A stretch of DNA of 8,147 bases, taken from a virus. Its lineage: Duplodnaviria; Heunggongvirae; Uroviricota; Caudoviricetes. Location: the IMG/VR virus record IMGVR_UViG_3300028996_000031. One strand, given 5' to 3'. How positions within the stretch are numbered: position 1 is the stretch's first letter; each line of letters starts with the position of its first letter. The notes under the pieces were generated by a model, which did not search any database, was not told where the DNA came from, and worked only from the letters and a program-made list of their open reading frames with translations. Positions 602 through 7,584 of the stretch are shown here, in pieces. Position numbers and translations under genes: made by a program.

Positions 602-1459
602 TTATTTTGTTTGCGATGGGACGNNNNNNNNNNNNNNNNNNNNNNNNNNNTTACTGGCTTCATGTTTCAGTTTTTTTAATCGCTTGATTCGTTCTTCGAT
701 TGAACTGGCAATTTTGGCAACATTAGAAATTTCTGGGCTTGGGGCTGTTTGTAGATCAATACACTGAATTTTTTTTAGATCTTCTTTGAGCGCAACAAAA
801 AAATCACGAAGATTGTTTTCTGGTAAAAGAACATGACTAAATGATACTTTTCCTATGTAGAATTCACTTATTGCCTCTCCAGACTCGCGCATGTGTTCAT
901 TCATTGCGAACAGAATTGTTTTGGTATTCTTATCAGTTTCCACTTCAGAAAGGGTTACAAGGCCTGTCTGGCTCTTGGTCAAAAAACGAATTTCTGTAGC
1001 ACCAAGTCTTCCGGAGTAATTGGAATTTTTACTATTTTCGATGGTAGAAGATAGATAATCTATTGTGGGTTTGATATTTCGTATCGTTTCAATATTTTTT
1101 TTCCACGCTTCACATTTACTTTTTGCGGTGCTAATAATTTCCCGATTGGTTTCGAGTTGCATAAATTTATTGAAACTAAGAACGTTTTCACCAAATTCCA
1201 CACCAAATTCGTTTTTACCACATTTATTTCCGATGTTGGTTTCAATGCCACTAGATGTTTTTACAATATAACCCATTTGATGTGGTTGGTTGCAACCAGT
1301 TAGACCACAGTGGATTTCTTCTTTAAATTTGTAGTAACCAATTATCTCCTCAAGTTGTTGAACTCCTTTGTCTATAGTGGTGACAAAGTTTGGTCTGGAT
1401 ATAATTTCCTCCCAGTTTTCAAGTTTCTCGATGCCGTTTTCAGTTCTGAGAAAAATCAT
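602..1459 (-). CDS. Orphan hypothetical protein (~285 aa), AT-rich, antisense to the late operon; C-terminus crosses an N-run
   Basis: Long minus-strand ORF. ATG at 1459 is preceded by GGAG with 6-nt spacing (the ATG at 1471 lies inside that SD, so 1459 is preferred). Codon usage is strongly A/T-biased relative to flanking phage genes. No P-loop, no hydrophobic segments and no family I recognise. The 3' end (stop at 602-604) is read across the 27-N run at 624-650 and is uncertain. Confidence 0.7.
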   Translation of the reverse strand: MIFLRTENGIEKLENWEEIISRPNFVTTIDKGVQQLEEIIGYYKFKEEIHCGLTGCNQPHQMGYIVKTSSGIETNIGNKCGKNEFGVEFGENVLSFNKFMQLETNREIISTAKSKCEAWKKNIETIRNIKPTIDYLSSTIENSKNSNYSGRLGATEIRFLTKSQTGLVTLSEVETDKNTKTILFAMNEHMRESGEAISEFYIGKVSFSHVLLPENNLRDFFVALKEDLKKIQCIDLQTAPSPEISNVAKIASSIEERIKRLKKLKHEASXXXXXXXXXXVPSQTK

Positions 1460-1682
1460 GAATCGCTCCATTTGAAAGTGGACCGTTTATTTTATCGGCA
1501 TAAAAACGAGAACACCACAAGTTATTTTATTACCGAATACTTGGTGAAGAGGGGGAACTTCGCCACACAGCTTAAACCCGCCGCCGTGCGGTTTTTTTTG
1601 TGCCACTTATCTCGGATAGACATGGTGAATGCGCTGGTGGAGGAAGTAAGAGTGATTTTTAATCAGTTGATTTTTTGAGTGC

Positions 1683-1720: not shown

Positions 1721-1796
1721 GGCCCTTTAGCTCAGTGGTGAGAGCGAGCGACTCATAATCGCCAGGTCGCTGGTTCAAATCCAGCAAGGGCCACCA
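1721..1796 (+). tRNA. tRNA-Ile2 (anticodon CAU, lysidine type) or tRNA-Met; 76 nt with encoded CCA
   Basis: Cloverleaf folded by hand: acceptor GGCCCTT/AAGGGCC, D-arm GCTC..GAGC, anticodon loop CTCATAA (CAT at 1754-1756), T-loop TTCAAAT, discriminator A plus CCA. C4-G69 and C5-G68 in the acceptor stem and overall resemblance to ileX-type tRNA favour Ile2. Confidence 0.85.
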
Positions 1797-1797
1797 G

Positions 1798-1874
1798 CCG
1801 CCACTAGCTCATCAGGAAAGAGCGTCAACCCTTTAAGTTGAGTGTGCGAGGTTCGAGTCCCCGGTGGCGGTCCA
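1798..1874 (+). tRNA. Atypical tRNA-like gene, anticodon TTT (Lys-like) with C instead of U at position 33; possibly a variant or pseudo-tRNA
   Basis: Cloverleaf: acceptor CCGCCAC/GTGGCGG (starts with C1-G72), D-stem GCTC/GAGC with GG in the loop, anticodon stem TCAAC/GTTGA (perfect), loop CCTTTAA (1830-1836), T-loop TTCGAGT with one A-C mismatch in the T-stem, discriminator T plus CCA. One substitution from a Lys(UUU) loop, two from an Arg(UCU) loop. Confidence 0.55.
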
Positions 1875-1876
1875 GT

Positions 1877-1952
<76 letters not shown>

Positions 1953-1955
1953 TAT

Positions 1956-2030
<75 letters not shown>

Positions 2031-2322: not shown

Positions 2323-2538
2323 ATGAAATCCATGGACAAAATTTCAACGGGCATTGCCTACGGCACCTCCGCAGGCAGTGCTGGCTACTGGTTTTTACAG
2401 TGGCTTGATCAGGTCAGTCCTTCACAGTGGGCTGCGATTGGTGTACTGGGGAGTCTGGTTCTGGGCTTCCTGACTTATCTGACAAATCTGTACTTCAAAA
2501 TCAGAGAAGACAAGCGTAAGGCTGCACGGGGAGAGTAA
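2323..2538 (+). CDS. S: Class II holin, phage 21 S-type pinholin (71 aa) with dual-start motif
   Basis: Strong SD GGAGGTGAGG (2311-2320). Protein starts MKSMDKIS, i.e. Met1-Lys2-Ser3-Met4 (Met codons at 2323 and 2332), matching the S21 antiholin/holin dual-start arrangement. Two hydrophobic segments, the first Gly/Ala/Ser-rich (SAR-like), and a charged C-tail. Sequence matches my recollection of S21/EssQ-family holins. Confidence 0.9.
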
Positions 2539-2542
2539 TTCA

Positions 2543-2887
2543 ATGACTCAAAACTATGAACTGATTGTGAAAGGGATCCGCAATTTTGAGAATAAAGTTA
2601 CGGTAACTTTAGCGTTACGGGACAAAAAACGCTTTGACGGTGAAATTTTTGACCTGGACATCTCGCTGGACCGTGTTGAAGGTGCCGCGCTGGAGTTTTA
2701 TGAGGCAGCAGCCAGAATGAGAATCAGACAGGTATTCCTGGATGTTGCTGCCGGGTTATGTGTAGGGGATGAGCAGTCGCCGGAAAAGCGCCCCATAATT
2801 TTAGAGGCGCAGAATGTGTGGATAACCTACAAAGGAAAGCCACCAGGAAGAATTACTGATTCTCTGAAGACTCCACCGAAATGGTAA
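2543..2887 (+). CDS. Hypothetical protein (114 aa), positionally equivalent to YdfR (DUF1327-type) between holin and endolysin
   Basis: ATG at 2543 with SD GGGGAGAG 7 nt upstream, 4 nt after the holin stop (translationally coupled). Phage-like codon usage. Stop at 2885-2887 just before the 58-N run. Family name is from recalled Qin gene order (essQ-ydfR-rrrQ), not from alignment. Confidence 0.65.
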   Translation: MTQNYELIVKGIRNFENKVTVTLALRDKKRFDGEIFDLDISLDRVEGAALEFYEAAARMRIRQVFLDVAAGLCVGDEQSPEKRPIILEAQNVWITYKGKPPGRITDSLKTPPKW

Positions 2888-2960
2888 TTTTACCAGCATA
2901 TTNNNNNNNNNNNNNNNNNNNNNNNNNNNNNNNNNNNNNNNNNNNNNNNNNNNNNNNNNN

Positions 2961-3125
2961 GGGGTTGCGTGATTCAAGCAGGAGCGATGCCAGTGTTGGT
3001 TGCATTTGTTCTCTGGGAATTGATAAGGCCAAATATGAAAATGCAACAGTGAGGGCATTTACATCATCCCGAAGCTTTGAAATGCAGTCGAGCAACTCCT
3101 GTAGAGAAATGGTGTTATTGTCCAT
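2961..3125 (-). CDS. Small antisense ORF with strong RBS (at least 55 aa; 90 aa if the frame is continuous across the N-run to 2853)
   Basis: Minus-strand ATG at 3125 preceded by AAGAGGA with 6-nt spacing (reverse complement of 3126-3140). Protein begins MDNNTISLQELLDCISKLRDDVNALTVAFSYLALSIPREQ. The 3' portion is interrupted by the N-run at 2903-2960. Confidence 0.35.
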
Positions 3126-3240
3126 AAATAATCCTCTTGATTGTCTTTACCTTTTCCCCGCCTGATTCAACAGGCCGGGACAGATAAACATATCCAGGGT
3201 TCAGAAACCGATAAATCCTGATAAATATCCATCCATATCC

Positions 3241-4262
<1,022 letters not shown>

Positions 4263-4499
4263 ATGTAGATTAACATTAAATCGGATTATTTTTAGTGCTG
4301 AATGTGAAATTTAAATAAAAAGGACTCTTCCATGAGTCAAAATCCTTGAAATCTTAAGGGTAAGATAAAAGGTCATTAGACAGAATGACACGTTTTATTA
4401 ATAAATAAAGCTATTGTTTCATTCGTGTGTTTTTCTTTACAAAAGTAATCCTTGCTATGGTTGGTTAATCATGCGTTAANNNNNNNNNNTGTTCTGGTT

Positions 4500-4540
4500 T
4501 GTTACAAAATTATCTGAAGCAGTCATTGTTATAATTTTAT
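4500..4540 (+). promoter_or_regulatory. Putative csp promoter (extended -10 TGtTATAAT at 4527-4535) with AT-rich upstream region
   Basis: TG at 4527-4528 followed by TATAAT at 4530-4535; weak -35. Would give a ~95-nt 5'UTR, typical of cold-shock genes. A 10-N run at 4480-4489 lies just upstream. Confidence 0.4.
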
Positions 4541-4637
4541 TATTTGTACCTCTTGAGATTTCCTTGTTGGTTTTTCTCTCTGATATTTTTTTCGGACCAT
4601 TCTGCCCAAGGGCTAACTTCTTCAAAAGGTAATAATG

Positions 4638-4850
4638 ATGTCTAACAAAATGACTGGTTTAGTGAAATGGTTTAACCCTGAAAAAGGTTTTGGTTTCATC
4701 ACGCCGAAAGATGGTAGCAAAGATGTGTTTGTCCATTTCTCAGCTATTCAGAGCAACGATTTCAAAACGTTAACTGAGAATCAGCAAGTCGAATTTGGTA
4801 TTGAGAACGGACCTAAAGGCCCCGCGGCTGTTCATGTAGTGGCACTTTGA
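4638..4850 (+). CDS. cspI: Cold-shock protein, CspA family (70 aa), CspI-like
   Basis: [44 protein letters not shown]... contains the RNP1 (KGFGFI) and RNP2 (VFVHF) motifs of cold-shock domains. Matches my recollection of Qin-encoded CspI. Second of two tandem ATGs chosen on homology grounds. Confidence 0.9.
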
Positions 4851-5054
4851 GGTAGAAAATATTACAAACCATATTCACTTTAGATGCCCGTGTTGCCATG
4901 GTTCTCAGTATAGAACATCATCTTTTGATGTTTCTGACAGGAATCCTTTCGGGGCAAAATGTATCTTTTGTAAATCAATGATGATTACATTTGATAATAT
5001 TTCACAATACTTAAATGTTAGCCGTCTGTCGTTAGATTTAAGAAAGTGAAAATG

Positions 5055-6870: not shown

Positions 6871-7077
6871 TCGCTATTTATGAGATTTTTTGAGGGGGTG
6901 GTTGTTGTTTAATTGTTTGGTATATCTAATTGATAAGTAAGGTGAAAATAAAATAAATACAACAACCTTACGATGTGCTTTGATGTCATTAATGTGAAAA
7001 AATTAAATGATATCAAATGGTTTTGTAAAAACACATGGTTGTTGTATCGCTTTTTATCGATGACTTATGGAGAGGAG

Positions 7078-7584
7078 ATGGCCTTTTTATTGAATAAAAG
7101 TGATATGGCCTCCTCCATCGGTATCTCTGTTCAGGCATTTGATAAATGGGGCGTTCCTCCTGTCGAGCGTCGGGGGAGGGAAGTTTTTTATGACGTTAAA
7201 ACTGTACTGGAGATAGATCGCGAGCGGCGACAACACAATCATAGAACACCTGATGACGGGGGCGATCTGGAGGAAAGGCTGCTTCGGGCCAGAGCTGAAC
7301 TGACAGAAGAACAGGCCGTAGCTCAAAAACTTAAAAATCAGGTAACCGAAGGTAAGCTCATCGATTCAGACTTCTGCGTTTTCGCCCTCAGCAAGCTGGC
7401 GATGGCATTGTCCAGTACGCTTGATTCTATTCCGTTATCCATGCAGCGACAGTTCCCGGATTTAACGCCACGTCATCTTGACCATCTGAAAACCCTTATT
7501 GCGAAGGGCGCAAATCAGTGTGCGCGGGCAGGGGATAAATTACCGGATTTGCTGGATGAATATATCAGAGCAACAACTGAATAA
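7078..7584 (+). CDS. nu1: Terminase small subunit (Nu1-like, 168 aa)
   Basis: ATG at 7078 preceded by GGAGAGG (5-nt spacing). The N-terminus LNKSDMASSIGISVQAFDKWGVPPV parallels the lambda Nu1 N-terminal DNA-binding segment (VNKKQLADIFGASIRTIQNWQEQGMPV), and the C-terminal half (FCVFALSKLA...SIPLSMQRQFPDL) also aligns by eye. The track ORF start at 6973 is treated as an artefactual extension. Confidence 0.85.
   Translation: MAFLLNKSDMASSIGISVQAFDKWGVPPVERRGREVFYDVKTVLEIDRERRQHNHRTPDDGGDLEERLLRARAELTEEQAVAQKLKNQVTEGKLIDSDFCVFALSKLAMALSSTLDSIPLSMQRQFPDLTPRHLDHLKTLIAKGANQCARAGDKLPDLLDEYIRATTE

What the first reader, a model, noticed from the sequence alone, without database searches (positions are those of the whole stretch)
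2853..3125. Antisense small ORF with a near-consensus RBS inside the lysis cassette, spanning a masked gap
On the minus strand an ATG at 3125 is preceded by AAGAGGA at ideal spacing, and the ORF runs at least 55 codons to the N-run (90 codons if the frame is continuous). A gene in the opposite orientation between the YdfR-like ORF and the endolysin is not part of the standard 21-type lysis cassette as I know it. It could be a small moron (for example an immunity, anti-holin or toxin-like peptide) or a chance ORF. An imperfect hairpin at 3157-3182 lies in its 5' region.
Basis: seen in the sequence. Interest (0 to 1): 0.5.

Follow-up and report, generated by a model that had tools for sequence, protein, structure and literature searches.

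The report
Antisense small gene inside prophage lysis cassette
The antisense ORF is a real, conserved 90-residue gene of unknown function carried as an optional extra ("moron") between the YdfR gene and the endolysin gene of E. coli 21/Qin-type prophages; it is already annotated as a hypothetical protein, and its relatives are ordinary chromosomal genes in Serratia and allied genera.

Summary
The minus-strand ORF 3125..2853 has the Shine-Dalgarno AAGAGGA six bases before its ATG. Outside the 58-base mask it is identical to a 273-nt CDS that RefSeq annotates as a hypothetical protein (WP_001315200.1, 90 aa), so the frame is continuous.

It is not a chance ORF. It matches PHROG 2411 (unknown function) at 4.9e-57. 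It occurs in 1136 of 5426 complete E. coli genomes, always as holin–YdfR–[ORF, antisense]–lysozyme. K-12 Qin and some phages lack it. Relatives at 30–60% identity exist in Citrobacter prophages, a second unidentified prophage and the chromosomes of Serratia, Chimaeribacter and Sodalis. In Serratia and Chimaeribacter the gene sits between dinI and bssS. Deep dN/dS is 0.08–0.21.

The protein is acidic (pI 4.6) and has no membrane segment. It is predicted to be a three-helix bundle with no informative fold match. Anti-holin, toxin-peptide and toxin–antitoxin readings are therefore not supported.

The best reading is a self-contained moron encoding a small cytoplasmic protein unrelated to the lysis machinery. 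Promoter, expression and function remain untested. Interest is modest.

The parts
2853..3125 (-). CDS of the 90-aa protein (PHROG 2411; RefSeq WP_001315200.1; called 'Ybl58' in some UniProt entries). The last 35 nt overlap the 3' end of ydfR on the other strand.
3132..3138 (-). Shine-Dalgarno sequence AAGAGGA, 6 nt upstream of the ATG. It is GAGAGGA in the commonest E. coli variant.
   Evidence: Read from the sequence; conserved in 13 of 13 E. coli upstream variants.
3157..3182 (-). Stable imperfect hairpin 32-57 nt upstream of the ATG (CCCG.GCCUG / UUGAAU / CAGGC.GGGG). It may be a 5'-UTR stem-loop or an operator-like palindrome. It is not followed by a U-run on either strand.
   Evidence: dG -18.5 kcal/mol, z -3.8. 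The inner 5-bp stem is kept in all E. coli variants, with one both-sides change in the L036 type. Hairpins of different sequence lie at a similar position in the Citrobacter and L093 copies, which differ from each other by compensatory changes.
3187..3215 (-). Candidate promoter P1: -35 TTTATC (3215-3210), 17-nt spacer, -10 TATGTT (3192-3187). The inferred start, near 3180, is at the foot of the hairpin.
   Evidence: PWM scan (score 8.4, no better than the shuffle median of 7.8). The -10 lies in the CCCTGGATAT block, which is the only upstream block shared with the Citrobacter copy (TTGCCG-17-TATTGT there). Inference only.
3140..3170 (-). Candidate promoter P2: -35 TTGAAT (3170-3165, in the hairpin loop), 19-nt spacer, -10 GACAAT (3145-3140). 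The -10 is TACAAT in at least 46 of 82 related loci (the Chlobot-type variants; also in the three minor variants L018, L021 and L036). A start from P2 would fall inside the Shine-Dalgarno sequence, which argues against it.
2784..2810 (-). Weak terminator-like hairpin on the minus strand (GCGCCUC...GGGGCGC followed by UUUU), about 45 nt after the stop and inside the ydfR coding sequence. It is also present in phages without the ORF, so it is not specific to the gene.
   Evidence: It does not meet the consensus scan criteria.
2882..3173 (.). Approximate extent of the segment (about 290 bp, GC 0.42) that replaces about 18 bp in prophages lacking the gene.
   Evidence: Alignment A1; GC content.
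2323..2887 (+). Context: S21-type holin (2323-2538, PF04971) and YdfR/DUF1327 (2543-2887).
3241..4262 (+). Context: phage lysozyme (PF00959) with a hydrophobic N-terminal stretch, read here as a signal-anchor-release (SAR) endolysin (3241-3774), and Rz/DUF2514 (3771-4262).

Best explanation
The ORF is a genuine protein-coding gene carried as a moron, an optional self-contained gene cassette. The cassette sits antisense to the late operon, between ydfR and the endolysin gene of 21/Qin-type lambdoid prophages.

It encodes a 10-kDa acidic cytoplasmic protein predicted to fold as a three-helix bundle with a disordered C-terminal tail. The protein belongs to an uncharacterised Enterobacterales family (PHROG 2411). 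Other members of that family are free-standing chromosomal genes, for example between dinI and bssS in Serratia and Chimaeribacter. Others are antisense inserts elsewhere in prophage late regions.

Inferred mechanism, not shown:
- The gene is transcribed from its own weak promoter in the 115-bp spacer before the lysozyme gene.
- The hairpin lies at or near the 5' end of the mRNA.
- Translation starts from the strong Shine-Dalgarno sequence.
- Expression happens when the late operon is silent (lysogeny or cryptic prophage), as for lambda bor and lom. This is because Q-antiterminated late transcription runs head-on through it.
- The product acts by binding another protein, as a small stress or regulatory modulator, and is not part of the holin/endolysin/spanin machinery.
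For: Coding:
- Full-length match to phrog_2411 at 4.9e-57.
- Exact protein seen on at least 1000 contigs (the tool's counting cap).
- 123 homologues down to about 30% identity share the motif L..VN.L.VAFSYLAFS...E...T(I/L)A.L.(F/Y)ES.N and a similar length.
- dN/dS is 0.33 within E. coli, 0.21 against Citrobacter and 0.08-0.16 among chromosomal copies, with synonymous sites saturated.
- Only this frame stays open in all lineages. The + strand 'shadow' frame carries stops in the L076/L059 variants and in Citrobacter.
- AlphaFold2 with 57 sequences gives pLDDT 82 and helices 8-34, 38-52 and 59-76.

Moron:
- Present in 1136 of 5426 complete E. coli genomes.
- In 82 of 82 E. coli-type loci the order is holin-YdfR-[ORF, antisense]-lysozyme.
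- Absent at the same junction in K-12 Qin and phage 611R1.
- GC is 0.43 against 0.45-0.51 in the neighbouring genes.
- Carried by isolated phages: Chlobot, 783R2 and an Stx2k phage.
- In a Citrobacter prophage the homologous cassette (ORF plus about 90 bp upstream) lies antisense upstream of a different holin (PF05106) and a CHAP endolysin. A strong terminator-like hairpin plus U5 follows its stop.
- In L093 it lies antisense next to the Nu1-like, TerL and portal genes, roughly the slot that bor occupies in lambda (the lambda comparison is from my own knowledge).

Not lysis machinery:
- No transmembrane segment and pI 4.64.
- Chromosomal homologues are monocistronic, in non-phage contexts, with no shared partner gene.
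Against: - No promoter reaches significance. The consensus scan found none. Of my PWM candidates, the two in the window (6.8 and 8.4) are no better than the shuffle median of 7.8, and the best in a relative (10.8, Chlobot) is still below the shuffle 95th percentile of 11.2.
- The E. coli copy has only a weak terminator-like hairpin, and that hairpin is also present where the gene is absent.
- There is no expression data of any kind.
- Some E. coli copies are frameshifted or truncated. Within-E. coli dN/dS (0.33-0.47) is only moderately low, so selection on the prophage copies is relaxed relative to the chromosomal ones.
Confidence: 0.6

Rival explanations
1. The product is a lysis regulator. 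It binds or titrates the pinholin, the SAR endolysin or YdfR. Alternatively its antisense transcript pairs with the late mRNA between ydfR and R, and so tunes the timing of lysis.
For: In all 82 E. coli-type loci the gene is inside the lysis cassette. In Citrobacter it is next to the holin. Its mRNA would be complementary to the late transcript across the ydfR 3' end and the ydfR-R spacer, as read from the sequence.
Against: The protein has no membrane segment. The Citrobacter cassette pairs it with an unrelated holin and endolysin. The L093 copy is next to packaging genes. Most family members are chromosomal genes far from any lysis gene. Many related functional phages lack it.
Confidence: 0.1
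2. The product is an immunity, antitoxin or anti-defence protein: a small acidic protein that neutralises a toxin or a host defence system.
Confidence: 0.12
3. The ORF is a chance reading frame, or the antisense shadow of a real + strand gene (2881-3165, 94 codons, co-oriented with the lysis genes).
For: The + strand frame is open in the window and shares wobble positions with the ORF, so it shows an equally low dN/dS of 0.26. Its ATG overlaps the ydfR stop.
Against: The + frame has internal stops in the L076/L059 E. coli variants and in Citrobacter while the minus ORF stays intact. It has no Shine-Dalgarno sequence. Its product is Ser/Cys-rich and not protein-like. Only the minus-strand protein has distant homologues and a confident fold.
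Confidence: 0.02
4. The gene is a decaying passenger: a captured chromosomal gene that is no longer expressed or useful in E. coli prophages.
For: dN/dS is higher in the E. coli prophage copies (0.33-0.47) than in the chromosomal ones (0.16 or less). Frameshifted, truncated or stop-containing alleles exist. No significant promoter was found.
Against: Most copies are intact. 80 of 84 loci have the full ORF, and a further 2 lose only the last codon. All 39 sampled complete-genome hits are annotated as a CDS. The Shine-Dalgarno sequence is conserved in all variants. dN/dS is still below 1, and isolated phages retain the gene.
Confidence: 0.15

Closest known systems
Lambda bor and lom (classical lambdoid morons; borD in DLP12)
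   Same: It is an optional gene embedded in or next to the lysis/late region. It is oriented against late transcription and present in some relatives but absent in others. DLP12 has borD antisense just after rzpD. One family member (L093) occupies a bor-like slot. That bor and lom are expressed in lysogens is from my own knowledge.
   Different: Bor is a lipoprotein and Lom an outer-membrane protein. This product has no signal peptide, lipobox or membrane segment. It lies inside the cassette, between ydfR and R, rather than after Rz. Its own promoter and terminator are not demonstrated.
PHROG 2411 / RefSeq WP_001315200.1 / 'Ybl58' (uncharacterised phage protein family)
   Same: Full-length HMM match (1-90 of 90, E 4.9e-57). 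The distant homologues P0067, P0074, P0076 and P0084 match the same profile. The exact sequence is in RefSeq and UniProt.
   Different: None: this is the family. It has no function, no Pfam model and no literature that I could find.
Chromosomal dinI-X-bssS gene of Serratia and Chimaeribacter (unnamed hypothetical protein)
   Same: Homologous protein at 30-42% identity, with the same length and motif. It is monocistronic.
   Different: It lies in a syntenic core-chromosome position (pyrC-dinI-X-bssS-solA), not in a prophage. It is under stronger purifying selection. There is no sequence or profile relation to BssS or YdfR.
Antiholins and embedded lysis genes (S107/S21-71 dual-start antiholins, Rz1)
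   Same: It is an extra reading frame within a lambdoid lysis cassette.
   Different: Those genes are co-oriented with the cassette and encode membrane proteins or lipoproteins (my own knowledge). This one is antisense and soluble, and it also occurs outside lysis cassettes.

Membership tests
PHROG 2411 (phage protein family of unknown function) | Significant full-length match to the family HMM | tested here: met
   E 4.9e-57, residues 1-90 on profile positions 1-90 of 90.
Moron (optional independent gene cassette in a phage operon) | Present in some and absent from other closely related phages at the same junction | tested here: met
   [not shown]
Moron (optional independent gene cassette in a phage operon) | Own promoter upstream and terminator downstream | tested here: inconclusive
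   No consensus promoter was found. There are two weak candidates, one of them positionally conserved with Citrobacter. The E. coli copy has only a weak terminator-like hairpin, whereas the Citrobacter copy has a strong one (z -3.96).
Moron (optional independent gene cassette in a phage operon) | Base composition differing from the surrounding phage genes | tested here: met
   GC is 0.43 for the ORF and 0.42 for the segment, against 0.45-0.51 for holin, ydfR, lysozyme and Rz. The difference is small.
Moron (optional independent gene cassette in a phage operon) | Expressed from the repressed prophage | not testable with these tools
   This needs RNA-seq, Ribo-seq or proteomics of a lysogen.
Holin / antiholin | At least one transmembrane domain | tested here: not met
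   Maximum 19-residue Kyte-Doolittle mean is 0.93; pI 4.64; no holin Pfam hit.
Type I toxin-like peptide | Short (under about 60 aa) hydrophobic membrane peptide | tested here: not met
   The product is 90 aa, hydrophilic (GRAVY -0.32) and has no transmembrane segment.
Type II toxin-antitoxin or immunity pair | Conserved adjacent partner gene | tested here: not met
   The neighbours differ in every context and the gene is monocistronic. YdfR occurs without it, and it occurs without YdfR.
Known anti-phage defence proteins (PADLOC) | Match to a defence-system HMM | tested here: not met
   No hits at E of 1 or less.
Bor-type lipoprotein | Signal peptide with lipobox cysteine | tested here: not met
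   The N-terminus MDNNTISLQELLD is polar and acidic. The only Cys is at position 14, inside helix 1.

The most novel reading that the evidence does not exclude
The family could be a previously unrecognised small stress- or SOS-neighbourhood regulator of Enterobacterales, core between dinI and bssS in Serratia and Chimaeribacter. Lambdoid phages would have repeatedly captured it and parked it head-on inside their late/lysis region. Late transcription would then switch it off at induction, and its antisense RNA or its protein would feed back on endolysin expression or on host stress physiology. That would make it a lysogeny-versus-lysis coupled switch element.
Probability: 0.1. Interest if true: 0.6.

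Novelty: new member of a known kind. Interest (0 to 1): 0.3.

Why it matters
About one in five complete E. coli genomes, including BL21(DE3), carries this gene inside one of the best-studied phage gene cassettes, yet it has no name, Pfam model or literature.

This work shows that the gene is truly coding, that it is an optional cassette, and that it is homologous to a syntenic chromosomal gene of Serratia and related genera. Together these give a concrete, easily testable small-protein target.

It also warns annotators that the co-oriented + strand ORF is a shadow frame. If the product proves to be expressed in lysogens, it would add one more lysogenic-conversion gene to lambdoid prophages. 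Otherwise it is an ordinary hypothetical moron.

Tried and rejected
- **Function by sequence families.** Pfam, NCBIfam and PADLOC gave nothing for the E. coli protein. Pfam on all 57 family members also gave nothing. Only an unknown-function PHROG matched.
- **Relation to neighbours.** hhalign against BssS and against YdfR showed no relation. The Citrobacter 238-aa neighbour is not detectably YdfR-like.
- **dN/dS within E. coli.** It does not discriminate strands, because the + strand frame shares wobble positions (0.26 against 0.33). This was resolved with stop codons in variants and with distant homologues.
- **Promoter and terminator.** The consensus scan found none for this gene. A PWM scan was not significant. 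By eye I found no LexA box or sigma-54 pattern upstream of the E. coli or Serratia marcescens copies; one CTGT-N8-ACAG match upstream of the Chimaeribacter copy has a GC-rich spacer and is not conserved.
- **Rfam.** Nothing in the region.
- **Literature.** Six searches returned no paper on this gene. The terms included ybl58, the WP and UniProt accessions, phrog_2411, DUF1327, ydfR/essQ/rrrQ, moron plus lysis cassette, and guessed locus tags.
- **More divergent prophage copies.** Scans of viral and metagenome contigs with P0067 found nothing. A scan with P0080 added only another E. coli-type locus. A mixed alignment was too divergent to scan with.

Full report
**Setting.** The window is the late-gene start of an E. 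coli lambdoid (Qin/21-type) prophage. Its features, in order:
- the C-terminal part of antiterminator Q (117-419, PF03589);
- an AT-rich antisense ORF (602-1471);
- four tRNA genes (1721-2030);
- an S21-type holin (2323-2538, PF04971, E 1.4e-35);
- YdfR/DUF1327 (2543-2887);
- a phage lysozyme with a hydrophobic N-terminal stretch, read here as a SAR endolysin (3241-3774, PF00959);
- Rz/DUF2514 (3771-4262);
- a csp gene with a cspA-type leader (4492-4896);
- a DUF3950 gene, and Nu1 (6973-7584).

**Is it a gene?** ORF length alone means little, since the window holds many ORFs of this size. Conservation decides the question.
- The protein matches phrog_2411 (unknown function) end to end at 4.9e-57.
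- The exact sequence is recorded on at least 1000 contigs, which is the tool's counting cap.
- A word-indexed search found 65 relatives, all Escherichia or Shigella.
- An exhaustive profile search and a second profile search reached 123 proteins of 81-106 aa at 30-60% identity. They come from Citrobacter, Serratia, Chimaeribacter, Chania, Gibbsiella, Sodalis and Acerihabitans. All share a core L..VN.L.VAFSYLAFS...E...T(I/L)A.L.(F/Y)ES.N and a third helix F..LA..L.

Within E. coli the Nei-Gojobori dN/dS is 0.33. However, the + strand frame 2881-3165 shares wobble positions with the ORF and scores 0.26, so this test alone cannot choose the strand. Three things break the tie:
- The + frame carries two stops in the L076/L059 variants and one in Citrobacter, while the minus ORF stays intact.
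- Only the sense frame is open in every distant homologue.
- The + frame product is Ser/Cys-rich and has no Shine-Dalgarno sequence.

Deeper comparisons give dN/dS of 0.21 (E. coli against Citrobacter), 0.16 (Serratia against Chimaeribacter) and 0.08 (Sodalis group), with synonymous sites saturated. The ORF is a protein-coding gene under purifying selection.

Some E. coli copies are damaged. Two of 84 fetched loci have internal stops, two lose only the last codon, and the protein database holds frameshifted 94-aa and truncated 50-56-aa clusters. This is as expected for prophage cargo.

**An optional cassette.** The gene is found in 1136 of 5426 complete E. coli genomes, whereas 3755 genomes match some part of the ydfR region. 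In 82 of 82 E. coli-type loci the order is holin, YdfR, ORF (antisense), lysozyme.

K-12 Qin runs ydfR straight into rrrQ, and phage vB_EcoS-611R1 has 63 bp between them. Alignment shows that about 290 bp (window about 2882-3173) stand where the gene-less form has about 18 bp. The exchange also alters the last YdfR codons. The segment has GC 0.42 against 0.45-0.51 around it.

Isolated phages carry the gene: Chlobot, vB_EcoS-783R2 and an Stx2k-converting phage. BL21(DE3) has it in its Rac prophage as B21_RS07140.

**The same gene elsewhere.** The contexts found were:
- *Citrobacter prophage (L086).* The homologue (59% identity, 83 aa) is again antisense to the late genes. Here it lies upstream of a lambda-S-type holin (PF05106), a CHAP endolysin and Rz/Rz1, and converges on an unrelated 238-aa gene. 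DNA homology with the E. coli cassette runs from a CCCTGGATAT block about 75-90 bp upstream of the ATG to just past the stop codon.
- *Logan prophage contig (L093).* A 39%-identical homologue is antisense next to two small phage genes, a Nu1-like gene, TerL and portal. From my own knowledge, that is roughly the slot bor occupies in lambda.
- *Serratia and Chimaeribacter.* The homologue is a syntenic core gene in pyrC-dinI-X-bssS-solA.
- *Sodalis-like group.* It lies in DUF892-DUF1883-(57 aa)-X-HxlR.
- *One further case.* It follows an Rnf/Nqr subunit gene.

The gene is monocistronic everywhere, and no neighbour recurs across contexts. This is the signature of a host-type gene captured as a phage moron. 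It argues against a dedicated lysis function or a two-gene toxin/immunity module.

**The protein.** It is 10.2 kDa, with pI 4.64, GRAVY -0.32 and no transmembrane segment. AlphaFold2 with a 57-sequence alignment gives mean pLDDT 82.1. The model has helices at 8-34, 38-52 and 59-76 and a low-confidence tail at 80-90. That tail is the part encoded opposite ydfR.

No fold or family search gave functional information:
- Foldseek against PDB found nothing significant.
- BFVD gave nothing.
- A profile search against PDB sequences gave nothing below E 0.19.
- Pfam gave nothing for any member.
- hhalign shows no relation to BssS or YdfR.

**Expression signals.** The Shine-Dalgarno sequence is kept in all 13 E. 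coli upstream variants. The consensus scan finds no sigma-70 promoter. A PWM scan gives two weak candidates in the window, neither better than the shuffle median of 7.8.
- *P1* is TTTATC-17-TATGTT (3215-3187). Its -10 lies in the only upstream block shared with Citrobacter, which has TTGCCG-17-TATTGT at the same place. Its inferred start is at the foot of the hairpin.
- *P2* is TTGAAT-19-GACAAT (3170-3140). The -10 is TACAAT in at least 46 of 82 loci (the Chlobot-type variants), where the score reaches 10.8, still below the shuffle 95th percentile of 11.2. It would start transcription inside the Shine-Dalgarno sequence.

The hairpin keeps its inner 5-bp stem in all E. coli variants. The Citrobacter and L093 copies carry an 8-bp hairpin of different sequence at a similar distance from the ATG. 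Those two differ from each other by compensatory changes: CAGUG:CACUG against CUGUG:CACAG. None of these hairpins is followed by a U-run, so a 5'-UTR stem-loop or an operator-like palindrome is more likely than a terminator.

Downstream signals differ between copies. The Citrobacter copy has a 10-bp stem plus U5 right after its stop (z -3.96). The E. coli copy has only a weak hairpin plus U4 at 2810-2784, inside ydfR, and that hairpin also exists where the gene is absent. Independent transcription is therefore plausible but not shown.

**Interpretation.**
- *Shown:* a real, conserved, optional, antisense protein-coding gene. Its product is soluble, acidic and helical, it has no conserved partner gene, and it has chromosomal homologues outside phages.
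- *Inferred:* it is transcribed on its own when the late operon is off, as lambda bor and lom are (established knowledge of those genes, not tested here). Its product would work by binding another protein.

The anti-holin, toxin-peptide and toxin-antitoxin ideas each fail a defining feature. A role in lysis timing through the protein or through antisense RNA cannot be excluded, but the non-lysis contexts of most family members argue against it.

**Novelty and score.** The ORF is already in RefSeq, UniProt ('Ybl58' in some entries) and PHROGs, always as unknown. I found no paper on it. It is a new, uncharacterised member of a well-known kind, the lambdoid moron. Its placement inside the cassette is somewhat unusual, and its chromosomal relatives between dinI and bssS had not been noted in anything I could find. 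That merits modest interest (0.3). The gene becomes more interesting only if expression data tie it to the lysogeny/lysis decision or to stress physiology.

Noticed in passing
window 602-1471 (-): A 289-aa ORF lies antisense to the late operon in an AT-rich block (GC 0.33-0.37) between Q and the tRNA cluster. It matches phrog_7003 (unknown function, 4.5e-96) and has no Pfam or PADLOC hit. It is a second moron candidate, in the slot where Stx phages carry stx (that comparison is from my own knowledge).
   Followed up: partly
window 2881-3165 (+): A 94-codon 'shadow' ORF lies opposite the gene and shares its wobble positions. It therefore shows a spuriously low dN/dS (0.26). It is broken by stops in some E. 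coli variants and in Citrobacter. Gene callers working in the late-operon orientation could be trapped by it.
   Followed up: yes
[not shown]
   Followed up: no
window 1721-2030 (+): A cluster of four tRNA genes (Met-CAT, Lys-TTT, Thr-TGT, Gly-TCC) lies between Q and the holin. A terminator-like hairpin plus T-run follows at 2238-2253, just before the holin gene.
   Followed up: partly
window 4492-4896 (+): A cspA-type thermoregulator leader (Rfam RF01766, 113 bits) with a cold-shock-domain gene (4635-4850) lies directly after Rz, as with cspI in Qin.
   Followed up: partly
L087 4594-4613 and 5001-5282; L095; L098: In Serratia and Chimaeribacter the homologue sits between dinI and bssS. In Serratia marcescens dinI is preceded by a clear LexA box (CTGTATAAATAAACAG) and followed by a terminator. 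By eye I saw no convincing LexA box before the homologue itself, apart from one non-conserved CTGT-N8-ACAG match with a GC-rich spacer in Chimaeribacter.
   Followed up: partly
L088 about 4930-4975; L104 about 3925-3970; L089: The Sodalis-group homologues have a promoter-like TTTAA(C/T)-17-TAT(C/G)GT with a palindrome (CACTAC-N4-GTAGTG, or CACTA-N6-TAGTG in Sodalis ligni) in the spacer. This suggests repressor control of the chromosomal copies.
   Followed up: no
L093 4983-4996 and L102 about 787-800: A shared 14-mer, ATGGCTGATTAACT, lies 20-35 nt upstream of two distant homologues in unrelated contexts. It may be a -10 region (TTAACT) or a tiny upstream ORF (M-A-D-stop).
   Followed up: no
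L086 3239-3955 (-) and window 2543-2887 (+): The Citrobacter 238-aa gene that converges on the homologue ends in ...KITGSLRVPMKL, which resembles the YdfR C-terminus ...GRITDSLKTPPKW. The rest of the two proteins is unrelated. The cassette therefore seems to travel with the last dozen or so codons of its convergent neighbour.
   Followed up: partly
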